Of a stretch of 35,575 nt of DNA, positions 3,770-35,575 are shown in pieces. Under the pieces are notes generated by a model. That model worked only from the letters and a program-made list of their open reading frames with translations. It was not told the DNA's origin and did not search any database. The stretch is taken from NCBI GenBank assembly GCA_013239625.1, contig MU053557.1:6335842-6371416 (forward strand), written 5' to 3'. The DNA is from Lama guanicoe. Lineage: Eukaryota. The position numbers were made by a program, and so were the translations under genes. Numbering within the stretch: the first letter of the stretch is position 1; each line of letters opens with the position of its first letter.

Positions 3770-4931
3770 TCAAGGTATTGCCCAAGTACTGAAGGATCAG
3801 GATCTCATGGAGAGAGTTTGGTTCATCAGAATCCTCCAGAAGAAAATCTTACACACCACAGGTGAGTACCAGCCTAACATGCCCAAGAACACTTCAAATG
3901 TACCACTGGTTATGGGTGCTGGAAGTTACTGTGACTACAGTTACAGTGATATTCTAGGGCCCAAAGTAATTAGTGAAATATGAAAGTGCCCTTTCTTCAA
4001 TGAGCTATAAATTGAAAGGAAAAAAGTGTGTTGAATAAATATTTTATGTACCCTGTGACCTAGTATGTAAAAATGGCAGAACCATTTCTCTAATTAAGTA
4101 ATCTCTGGAATAGTCCAAAAGTAAATCAGAGGTAGCTATCTCATTAGAAAATTCAATTTTGCAGAATCCATCAATATTGCCGTAAGGAGTATAAGACTTA
4201 TCTGTAGTTATCCTAAAATATTTGACTAATTTGTTATTTTTACTAAATTCCATGGACTCTATAACTTTTTCCCTCTGTGACTTCTCAAAGAGAAAAACAT
4301 CTGAAAGGTTCTAGGTATGCCAAGGATCTTCAGGGTTTATGTTTCTATGTAGTCTTATCCATTATAAAATAAAAATTAGAAAGAATAGAAAAGTAGGAAA
4401 TTGAGGGAAAATCAATATCCATAACTCAACTTGAAAGATGTAATTTATATCATGATAGATTTGCTTGTGGTCTTTCAAGACTCTATTTATACCTCTGTGA
4501 CTAAATACTAGTTTTTTTTTCCTCTTGAGTTCCTTAGGGGTAATTTTGAAATTACCTGGAATTGTAGCCTCTAGTTTGTTAAGACTAACTCAGCAAGATT
4601 TCACTGTGGTAGAAGATGCTGTTTTTCATCTGCCTTTTGCTGTTTTCCAACCATTACAGGAATGGTCTATAGTTCACCAATCAAGATGTTTCCTTTGCAA
4701 AGCATATTTTTTTTCTAAAACCAGGATTTGACAGGAAATGAGTATTGGAGAAGCAACACGAAAGAGGAGATATCTAGAACGTACAGAGACATCTTTGTGG
4801 AAGGAAGGCAACCATAAAATGGGTACTAGGCTGAAGAGTGAAGTGGACACCCACTGGCCCCAGATGTCACTCTATTATATATATAAAAGCCTCTGCCCAC
4901 TGGAGGAGTCAGGTGTGTGGTGTGCACTAAC

Positions 4932-5150
4932 CTGGGTGATGTACTGGATGATGATGATTAAACTGACCAGCATGCTGATGTTGGCCAACAGGGAGAAGAT
5001 GGTCAGGATCCTGAGGTTCCGAATAAGGGCCAGCAGCACCAGGAAGGGCAGGAAGGTGAGCATGTAGAGTCGTGAATCCATGGTGGGCATCAGGATCACT
5101 GTCATGTTGTCATGGCAGTTGCTGGTGGTGCCATTAACTGCTTCCACTAC
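4932..5150 (-). CDS. SLC36A2: SLC36A2 coding exon 6, 219 nt
   Basis: cctcag acceptor, GTTAGT donor; [73 protein letters not shown], with N-glycosylation sequons NGT and NMT. Confidence 0.97.
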
Positions 5151-5449
5151 CTGAGGAAGGAATAGGGAAAAGCAAGGGGAAGAGTCAGTGAATCTTCTGG
5201 CTACCTGATTAGTTCAGTGCCTGGCCCAAAATCAAACTCAAAGAACTGGCATGTCTCACAATGAGTTAGGGTGACTTTAGGACTTCTTACTGTAAATCTT
5301 CTGCACCATTCTTTCTCAAAAGAGGACAGACATTTTTCTCTGTCATTTTGGAAGTTAGCCAATATTCTTTCACTAAACTTATTTTTCTATTTGAGTTCCA
5401 CAGAGTCTGTTCCTTTTGCTTTTAACTGAAAAAGTCCACCACTTACTAT

Positions 5450-11768: not shown

Positions 11769-12354
11769 CTAGAGGACGGGGATGCCAAGGGGCAAGGCAA
11801 GAGAGAAGAGAATGGATCTGTGAATAACATGGTAGGGAGGGATTTGGTAGTTCAGGTTTCATTCAAGACTCAAAGAACTATCTAGCAAACTGGTTTGCAA
11901 GGCATTTTTAGCGGTAACAGGTATACTTTGTTTTTTCTTTACTGAAGTATAGTTGATTTACAATGTTATATATTCTTTCAAATATGATCTCAAGTAGTAC
12001 TCCAATAAAGTGTAAAAAGCAAGTACAATGACGTGTTATGGTGAGAGTAGAGGACTCAGACTTCTGATGTTTAGTGGCCTTTGAGGCATCCCTCAGCACT
12101 AGTGTTTTACAGAGCACAACTGGAAAACTAGTCATCCAACCCCTGCACTCCACAAGGGAGGAAACTGAGGCTCAGCCAGTGGACAAATGACTTGCTAAGG
12201 CCACTCAAAGTCCATGGCAGAGCCAGAACTCAAACCCAGACTAGATGTCTAGACTCCAGGTCTAGACCAAGCTGCCTTTCAGTAAGACTACTCAATGTAA
12301 GACATTATAAACTCTTAGAGGCTGTCCTCCCCCACCTGTGGCAGCCCCTCTTAC

Positions 12355-12445
12355 CAGGATGCCTGCATTCTTCACAGCCAGGGGTAGTCCCAGAATCCCT
12401 GTGCCTATGTTACCTTTCACCAGGTGAACCAAGGTCTGGAATGCT
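12355..12445 (-). CDS. SLC36A2: SLC36A2 coding exon 2, 91 nt
   Basis: tttag acceptor, GTAAGA donor; (T)[30 protein letters not shown] carries the SLC36 TM1 motif KGNxGTG; phase matches exon 1. Confidence 0.96.
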
Positions 12446-12607
12446 CTAAAGGAGAAGAAAAAGACTTGAGGATGTGGGTTCATGGAGGTGAGGAGATCTG
12501 ACAGGCGAAATCCCTCCTCGTATGCCAAAACCTGAGTTAAGCTGGATAGGTGGGCTCCTGGCCACTTCCCAGTCCCCATGGATTTCCTTGGCACTCGTGG
12601 TCTCCTG

Positions 12608-12658
12608 TAGGGTGACCAACCATCTCAGTTTGCCCAATACTGTCCTGGTTTTAGCAGC
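12608..12658 (+). mobile_element. hAT-Blackjack (MER81/MER94-like) terminal fragment
   Basis: TAGGGTGACCAACCATCTCAGTTTGCCCAATACTGTCCTGGTTTTAGCA resembles the Blackjack terminus. Confidence 0.6.
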
Positions 12659-20894: not shown

Positions 20895-23888
20895 CTTTGG
20901 TAACCATAAGTTTGCTTTCTATGTATGTGAGTCTGTTTCTGTTTTATAAATAAGTTCATTTGTGTCATTTTAAAAATTCCACACATAAGTGATATCATAT
21001 AATATTTGTTTTCCTCTTTCTGATTTACTTTACTTAGATAATCTCTAGGTCCATCCATATTGTGGAAAATGGCATTATTCCATTCTCTTTTATGGCTGAG
21101 CAGTATATATGCCACAACTTCTTTATCCAATCATCTGTTGACGGACATTAGGTTGATTCCATGTCTTGGCTATTGTAAATTGTGCTGCTATGAACACGGG
21201 GGTGAATGTATCTTTTCAAATTAGTCTTCTCCAGATCTTGATATGCCAAGATGCAGAATTGCTGGATCATATGGTAAGTCTGTTTTGAGTTTTTTAAAGA
21301 ATCTCCATACTGTTTTCCACAATGGCTGCACCAAACTACATTCCCACCAACAGTGTAGGAGGGATCCCTTTTCTCCACACCCTCTCCAGCATTTATCTTT
21401 TGTGGACTTTTTAATGATGGCCATTCTGACTGGTGTGAGGGGATACCTCATTGTAGTTTTGATTTGTATTTCTCCGATAATTAGTGATATTGAGCATCTT
21501 TTCATGTGCCTATTGGCCATCTATATGTTTTCATTGGAGAGATATCTGCTTAGGTCATCTGCCCATTTTTCGATAGGGCTGTTTGGTTTTTCCTTATTGA
21601 GTTCTATGAGCTGTTTGTACATTTTGGAACTTAAGCCCTTATCAGTCACATCACTTATCATTTGCAAATATTTTCCCCTGGTGTGTACACTGTTTTTCAT
21701 TTTGTTTATGGTTTCCTTTGCTGTGCAAAAATATAAGTTTAATTAGGTCCCATTTGCTTATTTGCTTTTATTTCTGTTGCCTTGGGAGACTGACCTAGGA
21801 AAACATTCTTAAAATTTTTGTCAGAGAATGTTCTATGTTCTCTTCTAGGAGATTTATGGTGTCCTTTCTTATGTTTAAGTCTATAAGCCATTTTGAGTTT
21901 ATTTTTGTGTATGGTATGAGGGAGTGTTCTAACTTCACTAATTCATACACAGCTGTCCAGCTTTCCAAACACCACTTGTCAAAGAAACTGTATATTTTCT
22001 CCATTGTATATTCTTGCTTCCTTCTCAAAGATTAATTGACCATAGGTGTCTGGGTTTATTTCTGGACTCTGTTCTCTTCCAATGATCTATATGTCTGTTT
22101 TTGTGCCAGTACCATGCTGTTTGGATTACTGTAGCTTTGTAGTATATTCTGAAGTCTGGGAAGGTTATGCCTCCAGCTTCACTCTTTTTCTTCAGTATTT
22201 CTTTGGCAATTTGGGGTCTTTTGTGATTCTATATAAATTTTAGAATTATTTGTTCTAGTTCTGTGAAAAATGTCTTGGTTAATTTGATAGGAATCACATT
22301 AAATCTGTAGATTGCTTTGGGTAGTATGACCATTTTAACAATATTAATTCTTTCAATCCAAGAGTGTGGGGTATGTTTCCATTTCTTTAAATCACCTTTA
22401 ATTTCCTTTATCAATGTTTTATAGTTCTCAGTATATACATCTTTTACCCCCTTAGTCAGGTTTATTCCTAAGTATTTTCTCTTTTTGATGTGATTTTAAA
22501 AGGGAGTTTTTTTTTTTAACTTTCCTTTTCTGATATTTCATTGTTAGCGTAAAGAAATGCAACGGATTTCTCTATGTTAGTCTTGTATCCTGCTACCTTC
22601 CTGAATTCATTTATCAGCTGTAGTAGTTTCTGTGTGGAGTCTTTAGGGTTTTCTATATATAGTATCATGTCATCTGCATATAGTGACAATTTTACCTCTT
22701 CCCTTCCAATGTAGATGCCTTTTATTTCTTTTTCTTGTCTGATTGCTATGCTAGGACTTTCAAAACTATATTGAATAGAAGCTGTGAGAGTGGGCATCCT
22801 TGTCTTGTACTAAATTTTAGTGGGAAGGCTTTCAATTTTTCAGCGTTGAGTATTGTGCTGGCTGTAGGTTTGTCACAAATAGCTTTTATTATGCTGAGAT
22901 ACGTTTCCTCTATACCCACTTTGGTGAGAGTTTTTATTATGAATGAATGTTGAATTTTATCAAATGCTTTTTCCGCATCTATTGAAATGATCATGTGGTT
23001 TTTGCCCTTTTTTTTGTTGTTGATGTGGTGTATCACATTGATTGATCTGCATATGTTGAACCATTCTTGATTCTGGGATTAATCTGAATTGATCATAGTC
23101 TATGATCTTTATTATGTGTTGTTGGATTTGGTTTGCTAATATTTTGTTGAGAGTTTTTGCTTCTATATTCATCTGAGATTTTGGCCTGTAATTTTCTTTT
23201 TGGGTAGTGTCTTTGTCTGGTTTTGGTATCAGGGTGATGGTGGCTTCATAGAATGGGTTTGGAAATGTTCCTCCCTATTCAATTTTCTGGAAGAGTTTGA
23301 AGAGGATAAGTATAAGTTCTTCTTTGTATGTTTGGCAGAATCCCCAGTGAAGCTATTCTGTCCTGGACTTTTGTTTGCAAGGATTTTTTTTGTCTTTTCC
23401 ATTTCAGATTCTCTTTCACTTCTAGTGATTGGTCTGTTCAAATTATCTACTTCTTTTTGATTCAATTTTGGTAGACTGTATGTTTCTAGAAACTTGTCTA
23501 TTTCTTCTAAGTTGTCCAATTTGTTGACATATAATTGTTCATAGTATTCTTTTCTTTTTTCTTGGTATCAGTTGTACTTTCTCCTTTTTCATTTCTTACT
23601 TTGTTTATTTGTGTTCTCTCTTTTCTTCCTAGTGAGCCTGGCCAGAGGTTTGACAATTTTGTTTACTCTTTCAGAAAACCAGCTGTTGGTTTTATTGATT
23701 CTTTCATTTCTGTTTTATTTATTTCCTTCCTGATCTTTATTATTTCCTTCCTTCTACTGACTTTAGGTTTTGTTTGTTCTTCTTTTTCTAATTCTTTTAG
23801 GTGGTAGGTTAGATTGTTTATTTGAGGTATCTCTTGTTTTCTGAGGAAGGCCTGTATCACTATGAACTTCCCTCTTAAGACTGCTTTT
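20895..23888 (-). mobile_element. L1 (cetartiodactyl-type) ORF2/3'UTR fragment nested in the ERV
   Basis: Broken ORF2 pieces: [32 protein letters not shown] (RT), [28 protein letters not shown]; many frameshifts. Confidence 0.95.
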
Positions 23889-29746: not shown

Positions 29747-29813
29747 NNNNNNNNNNNNNNNNNNNNNNNNNNNNNNNNNNNNNNNNNNNNNNNNNNNNNN
29801 NNNNNNNNNNNNN
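29747..29813. other. Assembly gap (67 N)
   Basis: Run of N bases. Confidence 1.
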
Positions 29814-31104: not shown

Positions 31105-33590
31105 CTGTGAATGGAGTGGCCATAATTACACAGTGATCTCCATTTATGTTATCATTCTAAATTCATCAATTTCAGTCATGAAAAAGTTTGACAGAGGAAA
31201 AGAAAAAGCAAGCTCCAATACGTGGTGCCACTAGGCACAACAAACTGCTGAATTATAACAATGTCAACCACTAAAAAGACCTTAGGGGACTTTGAGTCCA
31301 GCCAGCCACACTCAGGTATCCTCTTCCATGCGCAGGAAGGACTCCACCTCTGAGCAGCCCTGTGGCCAGGGTTGATGATAATAGAAATTACCGATAAAAT
31401 GTTGCTGTTATAGACATTACTGATAAAATATATAAGCTGATGTCTTTGCAGGACTTGTGCTTTGGGCTCTGACCACCAGGAGGAGCACCTTCCCTAATTT
31501 TAGGTCTGGAAGCACAGGTGTGCAGACTACAGTATAATCTTCGGTTCCTTTTGTGTGGGGGTAGAGGGGAGACTTTCTGATACACCAAAATATGCAGCAG
31601 CTCCTGTCCAAAGGATGGAAAAGGAATATAAATTGCACTGGCACCTGGACTGAAGAAATTGTTTCCTTATACATGGTATGAGTTAGTTGTCTAGAAAACT
31701 CTCTACAATGCTCATCCTTTATTCCAGCTCCAGCTGTCTATAATCAGTAATTCTGTATCTCAGAGTAGTAGTGGGGGGGCATCAGCTCCGAATAATGGTT
31801 CAGGCAGCCTTACTCGTGTGTTGGGAGGAGTGGGGTGTGTGTGTGGGGGGTGTGAAATGTGTGTGTGTAGGGAGCAGTGGGGCAGTTGGTGATGGGGAGA
31901 TCCAGAGATAATCCTGTCAAAAGTAGAACTAAAAAGAAAACTGAAGATAAAAGAGGAAGACCAGAAGGAGCAACTGACATGGGACATTTGGTCTGGAAGC
32001 TGAGAGATGAGGGCTTAAGCCTTGGCTTTGGGATTTGACAGCCTAATGCTCTTAGACTAGATTGCTTCTAGCCCTCAGTTTCTGTGTGTAGATGTGAGTG
32101 CATTTTACATATATATACTACATACATACATACACACACACACACCCCACCCATATGTGGTGTGCATGTATTTTTTTCTGAGCTATATGAGAATAACTGA
32201 TGTGTTTTAAAGATTGTGTTCCTCTTGTGATTTCACTCAAAAGTTCAAAGGATAAGAAAATATTTGAAAACCTTTGCTAAGTTCCCTTTTAGCGCTGACT
32301 TTTTTCCAGTGCTGGATGAAAACAGATCTAGCACCCAAACGTGCCAATTAAGAGCATACCAAAGTAAACAGATTTTAAATATGGACACCATGGTGTTTAA
32401 GTAGGTTTACTTGTTGGCTGGGATTGTCATACAGATGTTTTCAGGTCTCCCATTCTACAGATGGACAAAATGAGGTCCATTGAAAAAAGCAGATTTGTTT
32501 AACACCCCATAGCTTTCTGTCAGGTATTTTTCTCTCTGGCATGTTAAAGGATGAGGGAGCTGGATGGCCAGAGATGCTCAGTCCTCTCATCTGATGCCTT
32601 CACTTTACAGATGGGGAGCCAGAGGCTCAGAAAGACTAATGGTGGTCATATTAACAAGGTCCCTTATCTAATACAGATAATGTGAGCAGCTATTATTACT
32701 TTGGTTCGTATGATAGGCCAGGCAATATGCAAAGTGCTTTAAACGCACTGTTTAATTCTCACCACAATCCTGAAAGCAGGGATTATTATCTTTAAGGATA
32801 AGAAAATTGAGGTTGAGGGCCTCTCTTGCTTTAGTTTCTCCTTCTGTAAAACAAGGAAGTTGAACTAAAACAGCATGTCTGAAATGAAAGTCATTTATCA
32901 TATATATGTTCTACCTGTATTATTTTTCTCATCAAGTCTGTTTTAAAGGGAAATTGATTTTAGGAAGAAGTATTATAGTGCAACTCTAAATCACCATGAA
33001 TAGAACATATCAACACAAATACATAATTTAAGAAAGTAAACAAGCATTACTCATCTCACCACTAAGTTTATCACTTGTACCATCAGAGGCATGGAGGCAC
33101 ACTTTGAAAAGCTACTGAATTAAAGGACTTCCTGGTCCAGTCCTATCTTTGTCTCTCCAAGGACACAGAATCCTGGAGGCTGGTGAGATCCGACACTTGA
33201 GAGCAATGCTCTTCAACAGACACTAACCATGGTAGGGAGCAACCACTAAAACTTCACTGTAAACAAGATAATCTCCAGGTTATTGACAGCAAATGGGACC
33301 CCAGGAGCCTCTGAAGGTTTTTCTTCTTTCTGGGAGCAGGGAGACACTTTCCCAGCCAGGGGAGCATTGATCTCCTGGGGGGTTTCCACGGTTGCTTGGG
33401 CAGGGGGGCCCTCATGTGATAAAGACTACCTGCAGAGTTCACACGCTGCATCCTATCTTTGCCTTGCTTTTGGCTCTTGAAAAGGAGAAATGGTGGAAGC
33501 TCAGCCCTTTGGCATTCAACAGGCTTTGTGGTCAGCAGCATTACTGAGTGCTTGGAAACCACAACATGCATGTATAAAGGACTTTTAGAG

Positions 33591-34009: not shown

Positions 34010-34210
34010 AGAACTTAACTGTGTACCAGGCAGGAGCCTAAGCTCTTTACATGTATTAATCCGTTTGAGTCTCACAACAGCCTTAGGAGGTAGGTGTTAG
34101 TATTAGTCTCATTTTCCACAGGGGAAAACTGAGGCACAGGAAAGTACCGTAATTTGTCAAACTTTGAAGTGGTAGAACTATAAACAGAATTCAGGTAACT
34201 CGGCTGTAGA
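34010..34210 (-). mobile_element. MIR SINE
   Basis: ctcacaacagccttagggaggtagg...gggaaaactgaggcacag. Confidence 0.8.
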
Positions 34211-34211
34211 G

Positions 34212-34304
34212 CATGGTTTTTCAGCTTTGGCACTACTGACATTCAGGGTGCCCTGTGCATTGCAGGATGTTTAACTGTGTCCCTGGCTTCCAAGCACTAA
34301 TTGC
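34212..34304 (-). mobile_element. Truncated MER20
   Basis: ggcactactgacatt...cctgtgcattgcaggatgttta...tccctggc matches the MER20 reverse complement; the match stops abruptly at the OR sequence. Confidence 0.75.
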
Positions 34305-34924
34305 TCTGCATTCACCCATGTATTTCTTTGTATCCAATCTTTCTTTTCTCGAGGTTGCCATTACGTCCACAGTGGTGCCTAAGATGCTGGCCAACACACT
34401 TTCTCTCACCAAAGCAATATCCTTCATGGGGTGCCTTGCACAGTCTTTCTTCTACTTTCTCTTGGTATCCACAGAATTCTTCCTCTTGGCTGTCATGTCC
34501 TTCGATCGGTACGTTGCCATCTGCAACCCACTAAGGTATACCATCATCATGAACAAGAAAACATGCGTATCATTGCTTCTGGGATCTTACGGGGGTGCAT
34601 TTTTGTCAATTTTGGCATCAGCAATATTAAGTGCTCCTCTGCCCTTTTGTGGGCCAAATGTAATCAATCACTTTTTCTGTGACAGTGCCCCTGTGCTAAA
34701 GCTGGTCTGTGCGGATATCTCTCTGGCTGAACTGGCTGACTTTGTCTCCTCTGCTGTGTTGTTACTGGGTTCCTTGCTCCTGACAGGACTGTCTTACACG
34801 TACATTATCATTACAATCTTTAGAATTCCCTCTGTCCAGGGACGGCAGAAAGCTTTCTCCACCTGTGTGTCGCATATCACAGTGGTAACACTTTACTATG
34901 GAAGCTCCATCTTCATCTACGTCC
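34305..34924 (+). pseudogene. Olfactory receptor fragment, OR6-family-like, TM2-TM6 only
   Basis: [38 protein letters not shown] and YGSSIFIYV motifs; no stops; lacks the N-terminus, TM1 and TM7. Confidence 0.9.
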
Positions 34925-35575
34925 AACGGACTCTTTCCTCTTCATTGCCATTGCCATCCTGTTTTCAGTGGCTCTGACAGGGAACATCACACTGATTCTT
35001 CTCATTCGAATGGATCCCAGACTCCACACTCCAATGTACTTTCTCCTCAGTCAGCTCTCTTTCATCGACATGATGTACATCTCCACCACTGTGCCCAAGA
35101 TGGCAGTTAACTTTCTGTCCAATAGTAAGACCATCACTTTTCTAGGCTGTGAGATTCAGACATTTGTGTTCACGGTCCTTGGCGGAACTGAAGCCCTTCT
35201 TCTTGGGTTCATGTCTTATGATCGCTACGTGGCCATCTGTCATCCTTTACGTTACCCTGTGCTCATGAGCAAGAGGATCTGTTGGTTCACAGTCACGTGT
35301 GCGTGGACCAGTAGTTCTCTGAACTCTTTAATACATACGGTGTATGTATTTCAACTTCCCTTCTGTCCATCTCGACTCATCAACCACTTCTTCTGTGAAG
35401 TCCCATCCCTGTTGCCATTGGTGTGTCAGCACACTTCTCAGTATGAACATACGATCCTCCTGAGCAGCCTTATTATTCTGTTGTTACCATTCACGGCCAT
35501 TGTGGCTTCCTATGCCTGTGTGATCTCTGTGGTTTTCCAGATGAGTTCAGGAAAAGGACAGACAAAAGCTATTTC
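34923..35575 (+). pseudogene. Olfactory receptor fragment, OR2AK2-like, N-terminally truncated, runs off the window
   Basis: Open frame [21 protein letters not shown]...[13 protein letters not shown]...[10 protein letters not shown]...[25 protein letters not shown]...[12 protein letters not shown]...[13 protein letters not shown], closely resembling recalled human OR2AK2; no start codon or N-glycosylated N-terminus. Confidence 0.88.

What the first reader, a model, noticed from the sequence alone, without database searches (positions are those of the whole stretch)
34305..35575. Head-to-tail fusion of two unrelated olfactory receptor coding fragments (OR6-like TM2-6 + OR2AK2-like TM1 onward)
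Seen: an OR6-type frame runs stop-free to ...SIFIYV and switches at TAC-GTCC-AACGGAC, with no spacer, to an OR2AK2-like frame starting just before TM1. The second frame is shifted -1 and is stop-free for about 650 nt. Inference: the join links non-homologous positions (end of TM6 to pre-TM1), so this is not ordinary unequal crossover between paralogues. GTCC could be a microhomology (GTC-C.. versus .GT-CCA). Both breakpoints fall inside coding sequence on the same strand, which suggests RNA-templated template switching or an MMBIR-type rearrangement. The undecayed frames imply a recent event or a misassembly.
Basis: partly seen in the sequence, partly recalled or inferred. Interest (0 to 1): 0.8.

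Follow-up and report, generated by a model that had tools for sequence, protein, structure and literature searches.

The report
Two olfactory receptor fragments fused
At the edge of a camelid smell-receptor gene cluster, a piece of one receptor gene is joined directly to a neighbouring receptor gene that has lost its start, which is most likely an ordinary dead fusion left by a DNA deletion.

Summary
Window 34306-34925 encodes residues 55-261 of an OR6M1-like olfactory receptor (98% to intact alpaca proteins). Window 34923 to the end encodes residues 22-238 of an OR2AK2-like receptor in the -1 frame. There is no spacer, and the two sides overlap by 2-5 bases.

The join is not an artefact of this assembly. 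An alpaca RefSeq model on a 120.7-Mb chromosome (P0252) reads straight across the same junction and is identical to the window for 130 residues through it.

The two receptor types share a chromosome or scaffold in 11 species. In Camelus ferus they lie 4 and 7 protein accessions apart on one 4.58-Mb scaffold. The simplest reading is therefore an end-joining deletion between two neighbouring same-strand genes, which left a chimeric pseudogene. A second non-homologous breakpoint at about 34302-34306 joins half of an old transposon to the OR6 piece.

RNA templating has no support. A one-step replicative template switch (MMBIR) remains possible because the two junctions are only about 620 bp apart. 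Read-level checking failed. Interest is low: this is a new example of a known kind.

The parts
31261..31315 (+). Candidate upstream exon. An ATG at 31261 opens 18 codons, followed by a GT donor at 31316-31317. It corresponds to the first 18 residues of the alpaca model P0252.
   Evidence: tblastn gives 18 of 18 residues identical; the sequence and the donor are visible. Whether this exon is ever spliced to the fused body was not tested.
34206..34302 (.). Truncated copy of an old interspersed repeat. Only one half is present.
   Evidence: Own-genome search found 11 other copies. blastn limits are 34206-34301. The alignment of 9 copies shows that they continue alike past the point where the window diverges.
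34303..34305 (.). Upstream (5') breakpoint between the half repeat and the OR6M1-like fragment, placed to within a few bases.
   Evidence: Repeat homology ends at about 34301-34302 and receptor homology starts at 34306.
34306..34925 (+). OR6M1-like coding fragment, residues 55-261 of about 322 (end of IC1/TM2 through TM6). It has no stop codon and lacks TM1, TM7, the start codon and the stop codon.
34921..34925 (+). Junction overlap GTCCA. Either 2-5 of these bases could come from either parent.
   Evidence: OR6-type contigs C35193 and C13832 read on through TM7 from here. Intact OR2AK2-like proteins have G-P-T/M-D at this point, and the window keeps the P codon CCA. The parent's glycine codon was not seen, so the length of the microhomology is inferred.
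34923..35575 (+). OR2AK2-like coding sequence from residue 22 (just before TM1) to residue 238, in the -1 frame relative to the OR6 piece and open to the scaffold end. The first in-frame ATG is at 35010, after TM1.

Best explanation
This is a real germline rearrangement in a camelid olfactory receptor cluster, not an assembly error. An OR6M1-like gene and the OR2AK2-like gene downstream of it on the same strand were joined by a non-homologous, short-microhomology end-joining deletion. The deletion removed the last ~61 codons of the first gene, the intergenic DNA and the first 21 codons of the second gene. A further breakpoint removed the first 54 codons of the OR6M1-like gene and half of a nearby old transposon. 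The product is a chimeric pseudogene. The OR6 piece has no start codon and lacks TM1 and TM7. The OR2AK2 piece has lost its start codon and N-terminal tail and sits one base out of frame with the OR6 piece. Its first in-frame ATG lies after TM1, so no seven-helix receptor can be made from an unspliced message. The open frames mean only that the event is young. Shown here: the structure, both breakpoints, and the junction's presence in a second assembly. Inferred: that the parents were adjacent, the deletion mechanism, and the loss of function.
For: The junction has no filler and 2-5 bases of possible overlap. The alpaca model P0252 (395 aa, on a 120.7-Mb chromosome) contains, in order, window-identical residues from 31261-31314, two in-frame OR6 pieces, and then a stretch that reads frame B from 34905 across the junction. 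Across that stretch 216 of 223 residues are identical, and the first 130 have no mismatch. In alpaca the OR2AK2 part continues to a normal receptor C-terminus, as expected if the right side is a gene in place. OR6M1-like and OR2AK2-like hits share the same longest-contig length in 11 species. In Camelus ferus the models are 4 and 7 accession numbers apart on one 4.58-Mb scaffold. Close paralogues with the missing parts exist in the same genome: C35193 and C13832 continue the OR6 frame through TM7 at 98% and 95% identity, and C3398 carries the OR2AK2-type start codon. The first in-frame ATG of frame B is at 35010.
Against: No DNA of an ancestral, undeleted arrangement was seen, so the adjacency, order and strand of the parents are inferred from protein accession order and shared contigs only. 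The two breakpoints lie only about 620 bp apart, which fits one complex event at least as well as two separate deletions. The alpaca evidence is a computed protein model, not DNA that I saw, and 7 of its 223 residues differ from the window, so it could be a second copy rather than the same locus. RefSeq treats the alpaca locus as protein-coding, and neither frame has decayed.
Confidence: 0.62

Rival explanations
1. One complex replicative event (FoSTeS/MMBIR-type serial template switching) or one multi-break repair event made both junctions at once. This would leave a deletion, then a retained 620-bp piece, then a second deletion. The product is the same dead chimera.
For: Two non-homologous breakpoints lie about 620 bp apart, at about 34302-34306 and 34921-34926. 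The second has a short possible microhomology. Neither has filler DNA.
Against: Nothing shows that the two junctions arose together. The microhomology at the upstream junction could not be assessed, because no copy of the OR6 5' part is assembled in this genome (best of 150 scored hits is 53% identical). No templated insertion or inverted piece is present. The alpaca model does not cover the upstream junction.
Confidence: 0.2
2. Assembly artefact: two contigs from a poorly assembled paralogue family were butted together during scaffolding or gap closing, and the animal actually has two intact genes.
For: This gene family is badly assembled here. The scaffold ends inside the OR2AK2-like gene. 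A 225-bp contig (C24866) ends at the same homologous base. C3398 has a 44-N gap ending next to the position homologous to the junction. Two contig ends share exactly 31 bases. No intact copy of either gene is in the assembly: the next best hits are 54% and 57% identical, among 124 and 126 scored.
Against: The same out-of-frame join is read by an alpaca protein model from a different, chromosome-scale assembly whose sequence differs from the window at 7 of 223 residues downstream. The same false join arising twice in different sequence is very unlikely. In addition, 20 runs from 9 studies hold 73-83% of the stretch's sampled words, although that figure is not specific to the junction.
Confidence: 0.07
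3. A working chimeric gene: a new upstream exon (ATG at 31261) is spliced into the fused body and rescues the headless OR2AK2-like receptor, as the 395-aa alpaca model proposes.
For: The first 18 residues of the alpaca model are identical to window 31261-31314 and are followed by a GT donor. Both receptor frames are free of stops. The OR2AK2 part of the model matches the full 7tm_4 profile, positions 2-276 of 280.
Against: The model skips about 61 codons inside the OR6 piece and switches frame through a short intron, which is typical of a computed rescue of a pseudogene. At the place where exon 2 would have to start in the window, the preceding two bases are CG, not AG (my reading). The model has no N-terminal glycosylation site and adds partial helices before TM1. 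No RNA evidence was available to me.
Confidence: 0.06
4. RNA-templated chimera: reverse-transcriptase template switching between two receptor mRNAs, inserted as a retrocopy.
For: Both pieces are coding sequence on one strand and are joined without a spacer.
Against: No poly(A) tract or target-site duplication is visible at the upstream end. The upstream flank is a truncated repeat rather than an insertion site. Receptor coding exons are intronless, so the absence of introns says nothing. Adjacent parent genes explain the same-strand coding-to-coding join without RNA. The downstream end lies beyond the scaffold.
Confidence: 0.02

Closest known systems
Human OR8U1 fusion gene, formed from OR8U8 and OR8U9 by non-allelic homologous recombination (Hasin et al. 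2008, PMC2570968; I read five passages found with 'find', including the legend of Figure S9, but not the figure)
   Same: It is a deletion between tandemly oriented neighbouring olfactory receptor genes that leaves one hybrid gene.
   Different: OR8U1 was joined at homologous positions within a stretch of identity, so it is in frame and full length. Here the join links the end of TM6 to the position just before TM1, between families only about 40% identical. It shifts the frame and duplicates TM2-TM6.
Non-homologous end-joining or microhomology-mediated deletions in receptor clusters. The same paper names NHEJ as a likely second source of copy-number variants at receptor loci (Discussion passage).
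   Same: There is no long homology at the breakpoint, at most a few shared bases, no filler, and both flanks are collinear on one strand.
   Different: The deleted segment and the undeleted ancestor were not seen, so its size and the adjacency of the parents are inferred.
Alpaca RefSeq model XP_072807786.1 'olfactory receptor 2AK2-like' (P0252)
   Same: It has the same junction, the same upstream exon and the same OR6 pieces. Identities to the window are 18 of 18, 52 of 53, 24 of 24 and 216 of 223 residues.
   Different: It is annotated as a 395-aa spliced protein-coding gene, whereas I read the locus as a chimeric pseudogene. Five of the seven differing residues cluster at window 35295-35321.
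Deletion-normal-deletion complex rearrangements ascribed to FoSTeS/MMBIR
   Same: Two breakpoints lie a few hundred bases apart and flank a short retained segment.
   Different: There is no evidence that the two junctions arose at the same time, and there are no templated insertions or inversions.

Membership tests
Olfactory receptor, OR6M1-like (left half) | Significant match to the olfactory receptor profile and to family members | tested here: met
   Pfam 7tm_4 E 1.2e-40. 98% identity to alpaca OR6M1-like P0001/P0241 over 207 residues.
Olfactory receptor, OR6M1-like (left half) | Complete single-exon frame of about 310-320 codons with start codon, seven helices and stop codon | tested here: not met
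   Only profile positions 25-229 of 280 are present, i.e. residues 55-261 of 322. TM1 and TM7 are absent from the whole window.
Olfactory receptor, OR2AK2-like (right half) | Significant match to the olfactory receptor profile and to family members | tested here: met
   7tm_4 E 2.1e-27 and 7tm_1 E 1.8e-37. 96.3% identity to P0250 and 96.9% to P0252.
Olfactory receptor, OR2AK2-like (right half) | Own start codon and N-terminal tail with an N-x-T site | tested here: not met
   Homology starts at residue 22. Intact relatives begin with a 21-residue tail carrying N-Q-T. The first in-frame ATG is at 35010.
Olfactory receptor, OR2AK2-like (right half) | Frame intact through TM7 to the stop codon | not testable with these tools
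   The scaffold ends at residue 238. In the alpaca model the frame is complete.
NAHR-type fusion receptor gene (OR8U1 kind) | Junction at homologous positions inside a stretch of high identity, giving an in-frame full-length gene | tested here: not met
   Residue 261 of one gene is joined to residue 22 of the other, the frame is shifted by -1, and the two families are 39-42% identical.
End-joining interstitial deletion between neighbouring genes | Flanks collinear on one strand, no filler, at most a few bases of microhomology | tested here: met
   The overlap is 2-5 bases; its upper bound depends on a parent codon that I did not see.
End-joining interstitial deletion between neighbouring genes | Parent genes adjacent and in the same orientation in the undeleted state | tested here: inconclusive
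   Both types are on the same chromosome or scaffold in 11 species, and accession numbers are 3-7 apart in alpaca and Camelus ferus. Order and strand were not seen.
Replicative template switching (FoSTeS/MMBIR) | Two or more closely spaced junctions with microhomology formed in one event | tested here: inconclusive
   The two junctions are about 620 bp apart. Whether they arose together, and the microhomology at the upstream junction, could not be tested.
Retrocopy / RNA-templated chimera | Poly(A) tail and target-site duplication around the block | tested here: inconclusive
   Neither is present at the upstream end. The downstream end lies beyond the scaffold.
Assembly chimera | Junction confined to one assembly | tested here: not met
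   The alpaca model from a 120.7-Mb chromosome reads across it.

The most novel reading that the evidence does not exclude
The decapitated OR2AK2-like receptor has been rescued by a newly recruited upstream exon (ATG at 31261) and OR6-derived segments. On this reading camelids express a chimeric receptor with a novel N-terminal region built from parts of a neighbouring receptor gene. That would be gene birth by non-homologous fusion within a receptor cluster, and it would explain why both frames stay open.
Probability: 0.06. Interest if true: 0.55.

Novelty: new member of a known kind. Interest (0 to 1): 0.17.

Why it matters
Olfactory receptor clusters turn over by duplication, deletion and pseudogene formation. 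This locus is a clean, dated-by-eye example in which a deletion between neighbouring genes of different families left a hybrid with both breakpoints still readable. It has two practical uses. First, the alpaca reference annotates the locus as a 395-aa protein-coding gene that is probably a pseudogene, so receptor counts built on that annotation are inflated by one. Second, the two junctions could serve as a simple presence/absence marker among camelid species and breeds. It does not open a new question.

Tried and rejected
The run search gives only overall word shares (0.73-0.83 in 20 runs of 9 studies), which say nothing about the junction itself.

2. My first working idea was a scaffolding or gap-closing artefact, prompted by contig ends that coincide with paralogue boundaries. 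I dropped it after finding the alpaca model that crosses the junction.

3. I searched the animal's own assembly for intact parents.
- Whole proteins: 124 of 1655 and 126 of 1654 candidates were scored, and the next best hits were 54% and 57% identical.
- N-terminal pieces: 150 hits were scored each time. For OR2AK2, only the window and C3398 are close. For OR6, the best hit is 53% identical.
- DNA of the small contigs found only themselves.
As a result, the parent nucleotides at the OR2AK2 side of the junction and at the upstream junction remain unseen.

4. Earlier notes of this scan gave nothing relevant, whether searched by sequence, by place or by words.

5. A literature listing for camelid receptor repertoires was seen only as a listing and was not used.

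6. No structure prediction, complex prediction or RNA-family search was run, because none bears on the question.

Full report
**What is in the sequence**

The last 1.27 kb of the window holds two olfactory receptor coding fragments on the + strand.

- Frame A (34240..34977) is free of stops and is receptor-like from 34306 to 34926. Pfam 7tm_4 matches profile positions 25-229 of 280 (E 1.2e-40). tblastn places the fragment at residues 55-261 of 322-aa OR6M1-like proteins of alpaca, with 98.07% identity and 4 mismatches in 207 residues.
- Frame B (34824 to the window end) is shifted by -1 and is receptor-like from 34923. 7tm_4 matches positions 2-208 (E 2.1e-27). The fragment corresponds to residues 22-238 of OR2AK2-like proteins, at 96.3% identity to P0250 and 92.6% to P0122.
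- Each half is only 39-42% identical to the other half's family, and they cover overlapping receptor positions. They are therefore pieces of two different genes.
- No other receptor piece lies anywhere in the 35.6-kb window.
- The window ends exactly where scaffold C1176 ends (6,371,416 bases), so the right-hand frame is cut by the assembly, not by biology.

**The junction**

In the same genome, two small unplaced contigs match the OR6 piece and then continue the OR6 frame through TM7 and the C-terminal tail.
- C35193 (280 bp) is 98% identical to 34822-34925.
- C13832 (202 bp) is 95% identical to 34791-34923.

Intact OR2AK2-like proteins of alpaca and camels read G-P-(T/M)-D-S-F-L-F just before TM1. 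The window keeps P-T-D-S-F-L-F, with the proline codon at 34923-34925.

The switch therefore falls inside GTCCA (34921-34925), with no inserted bases. Between 2 and 5 of those bases could come from either parent. The upper figure depends on the parent's glycine codon, which I could not see. The only close paralogue with the N-terminal region in this assembly, C3398, has a 44-N gap there.

**Is the join real?**

My first suspicion was an assembly artefact, because this gene family is badly assembled here.
- The scaffold ends inside the gene.
- A 225-bp contig ends at the same homologous base.
- C3398's gap ends next to the junction position.
- Two contig ends share exactly 31 bases.
- No intact copy of either gene is assembled. 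The next best hits are 54% and 57% identical, among 124 and 126 scored hits.

Laying public reads failed.

The protein database settled the matter. The seven closest camelid clusters hold 26 protein models. One of the 16 OR2AK2-like models, P0252 (alpaca XP_072807786.1, 395 aa, on a 120.7-Mb chromosome), is a spliced model made of four parts:
- 18 residues identical to window 31261-31314;
- an OR6 piece, 52 of 53 residues identical to 34351-34509;
- a second OR6 piece, 24 of 24 residues identical to 34687-34758;
- a stretch that starts at 34905, inside the OR6 TM6 sequence read in frame B, and runs across the junction into the OR2AK2 frame. Here 216 of 223 residues are identical, and the first 130 show no mismatch.

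A different assembly, whose sequence differs from the window further downstream, therefore carries the same out-of-frame join and the same upstream layout. The same false join arising twice in different sequence is very unlikely. None of the 6 Camelus OR2AK2-like models crosses the junction. That says little, because pseudogenes normally get no protein model.

**A second breakpoint**

Upstream of the OR6 piece, 34206-34301 is one half of an old interspersed repeat. Eleven other copies were found in the genome. In an alignment of nine of them, the copies go on alike past the point where the window turns into receptor sequence. Receptor homology begins at 34306, at residue 55. The 620-bp OR6 piece is thus bounded by two non-homologous junctions. 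The alpaca model does not cover the upstream junction, and no copy of the OR6 5' part is assembled here (best of 150 scored hits is 53% identical). Its microhomology therefore could not be assessed.

**How it most likely arose**

The two receptor types are neighbours.
- Their hits sit on contigs of identical length in 11 species: alpaca, three camels, brown bear, two elephants, two tenrecs, an elephant shrew and a porcupine.
- In Camelus ferus the OR6M1-like model and two OR2AK2-like models are 4 and 7 accession numbers apart on one 4.58-Mb scaffold.
- In alpaca the accession numbers pair up as 808108/808111 and 808193/808197, which suggests duplicated two-gene modules. Accession order is only a hint.

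For two adjacent genes on one strand, a plain interstitial deletion from the end of TM6 of the first gene to just before TM1 of the second gives exactly the observed join. The short overlap and the absence of long homology point to end joining rather than homologous recombination. In alpaca the right-hand gene runs on to a normal receptor C-terminus, as expected for a gene still in place.

I put 0.62 on this reading, with the upstream breakpoint as a further deletion. I put 0.20 on a single complex event, either replicative template switching or multi-break repair, that made both junctions at once. The close spacing of the junctions makes that a fair rival. RNA-templated origin has nothing in its favour beyond strand and coding content (0.02). 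An artefact keeps 0.07, because I saw a protein model from the second assembly rather than its DNA.

**What it does**

Most likely nothing.
- The OR6 piece lacks a start codon, TM1, TM7 and a stop codon.
- The OR2AK2 piece lacks its start codon and its N-terminal tail with the glycosylation site.
- The first in-frame ATG is at 35010, after TM1.
- The alpaca model reaches an open frame only by skipping about 61 codons within the OR6 piece and changing frame through a short intron. In the window the bases before its second exon are CG rather than AG (my reading).

The open frames fit a young event and need no selection. A rescued, expressed chimera cannot be excluded, and I give it 0.06.

**Comparison with what is known**

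The nearest documented case is the human OR8U1 fusion, made from OR8U8 and OR8U9 by homologous recombination between tandem genes. The same paper names non-homologous end joining as a likely second process at receptor loci (PMC2570968; I read passages and the legend of Figure S9, not the figure). The present case shares the tandem-neighbour deletion. It differs in joining non-homologous positions of two different families, out of frame. It is a new example of a known kind, and the locus itself is already in RefSeq under a probably over-optimistic protein model.

**Limits**

I saw no camelid DNA other than this assembly. Parent order and strand, the size of the deleted DNA, the age of the event and its distribution among camelids are all open.

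Noticed in passing
window 4875-5213 and 12292-12624, minus strand: Two open stretches match the amino-acid transporter family Aa_trans (E 1.2e-07 and 4.1e-05). From recalled motifs they look like exons of an SLC36-type proton/amino-acid transporter gene. If so, the receptor fusion sits at the very edge of the receptor cluster next to an unrelated gene.
   Followed up: partly
window 22746-23078, minus strand (also 23229-23567): A reverse-transcriptase fragment (RVT_1, E 5.1e-15), presumably a decayed LINE copy.
   Followed up: partly
window 29747-29813: A 67-N assembly gap directly after a GT-type microsatellite.
   Followed up: no
window 35575 = end of scaffold C1176; L003 (C24866): The 6.37-Mb scaffold and a 225-bp contig of a 90%-identical paralogue stop at the same homologous base, just before the conserved TM6 motif. 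This suggests that the assembler broke wherever paralogues share sequence.
   Followed up: partly
L002 (C3398) 1-31 and L011 (C35663) 1-31: The ends of two separate contigs share exactly 31 bases, a sign of a word-graph short-read assembly. C3398 also has a 44-N gap where about 47 bases of coding sequence are expected.
   Followed up: no
window 35295-35321: Five of the seven residues that differ between the window and the alpaca model P0252 fall within nine codons of TM4. The window's version resembles other paralogues (P0123, and camel proteins). This could be a gene-conversion patch or paralogue mixing in one assembly.
   Followed up: no
protein P0121 (Camelus ferus EPY85951.1): This is another head-to-tail receptor chimera. 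Residues 1-126 are OR2AK2-like (TM1 to the start of TM4), followed by a different OR2-type receptor starting again at TM1. Whether this is a gene-model artefact or a second genomic fusion was not examined.
   Followed up: no
protein P0243 (Camelus ferus EPY85944.1): An OR6M1-like model of 545 aa with a 253-residue non-receptor N-terminal extension. It is probably a neighbouring gene merged into the model. No matching sequence is in the window.
   Followed up: no
window 34040-34180: The sequence just upstream of the half repeat looks like a MIR-type SINE core. This is recalled from its appearance and was not tested.
   Followed up: no
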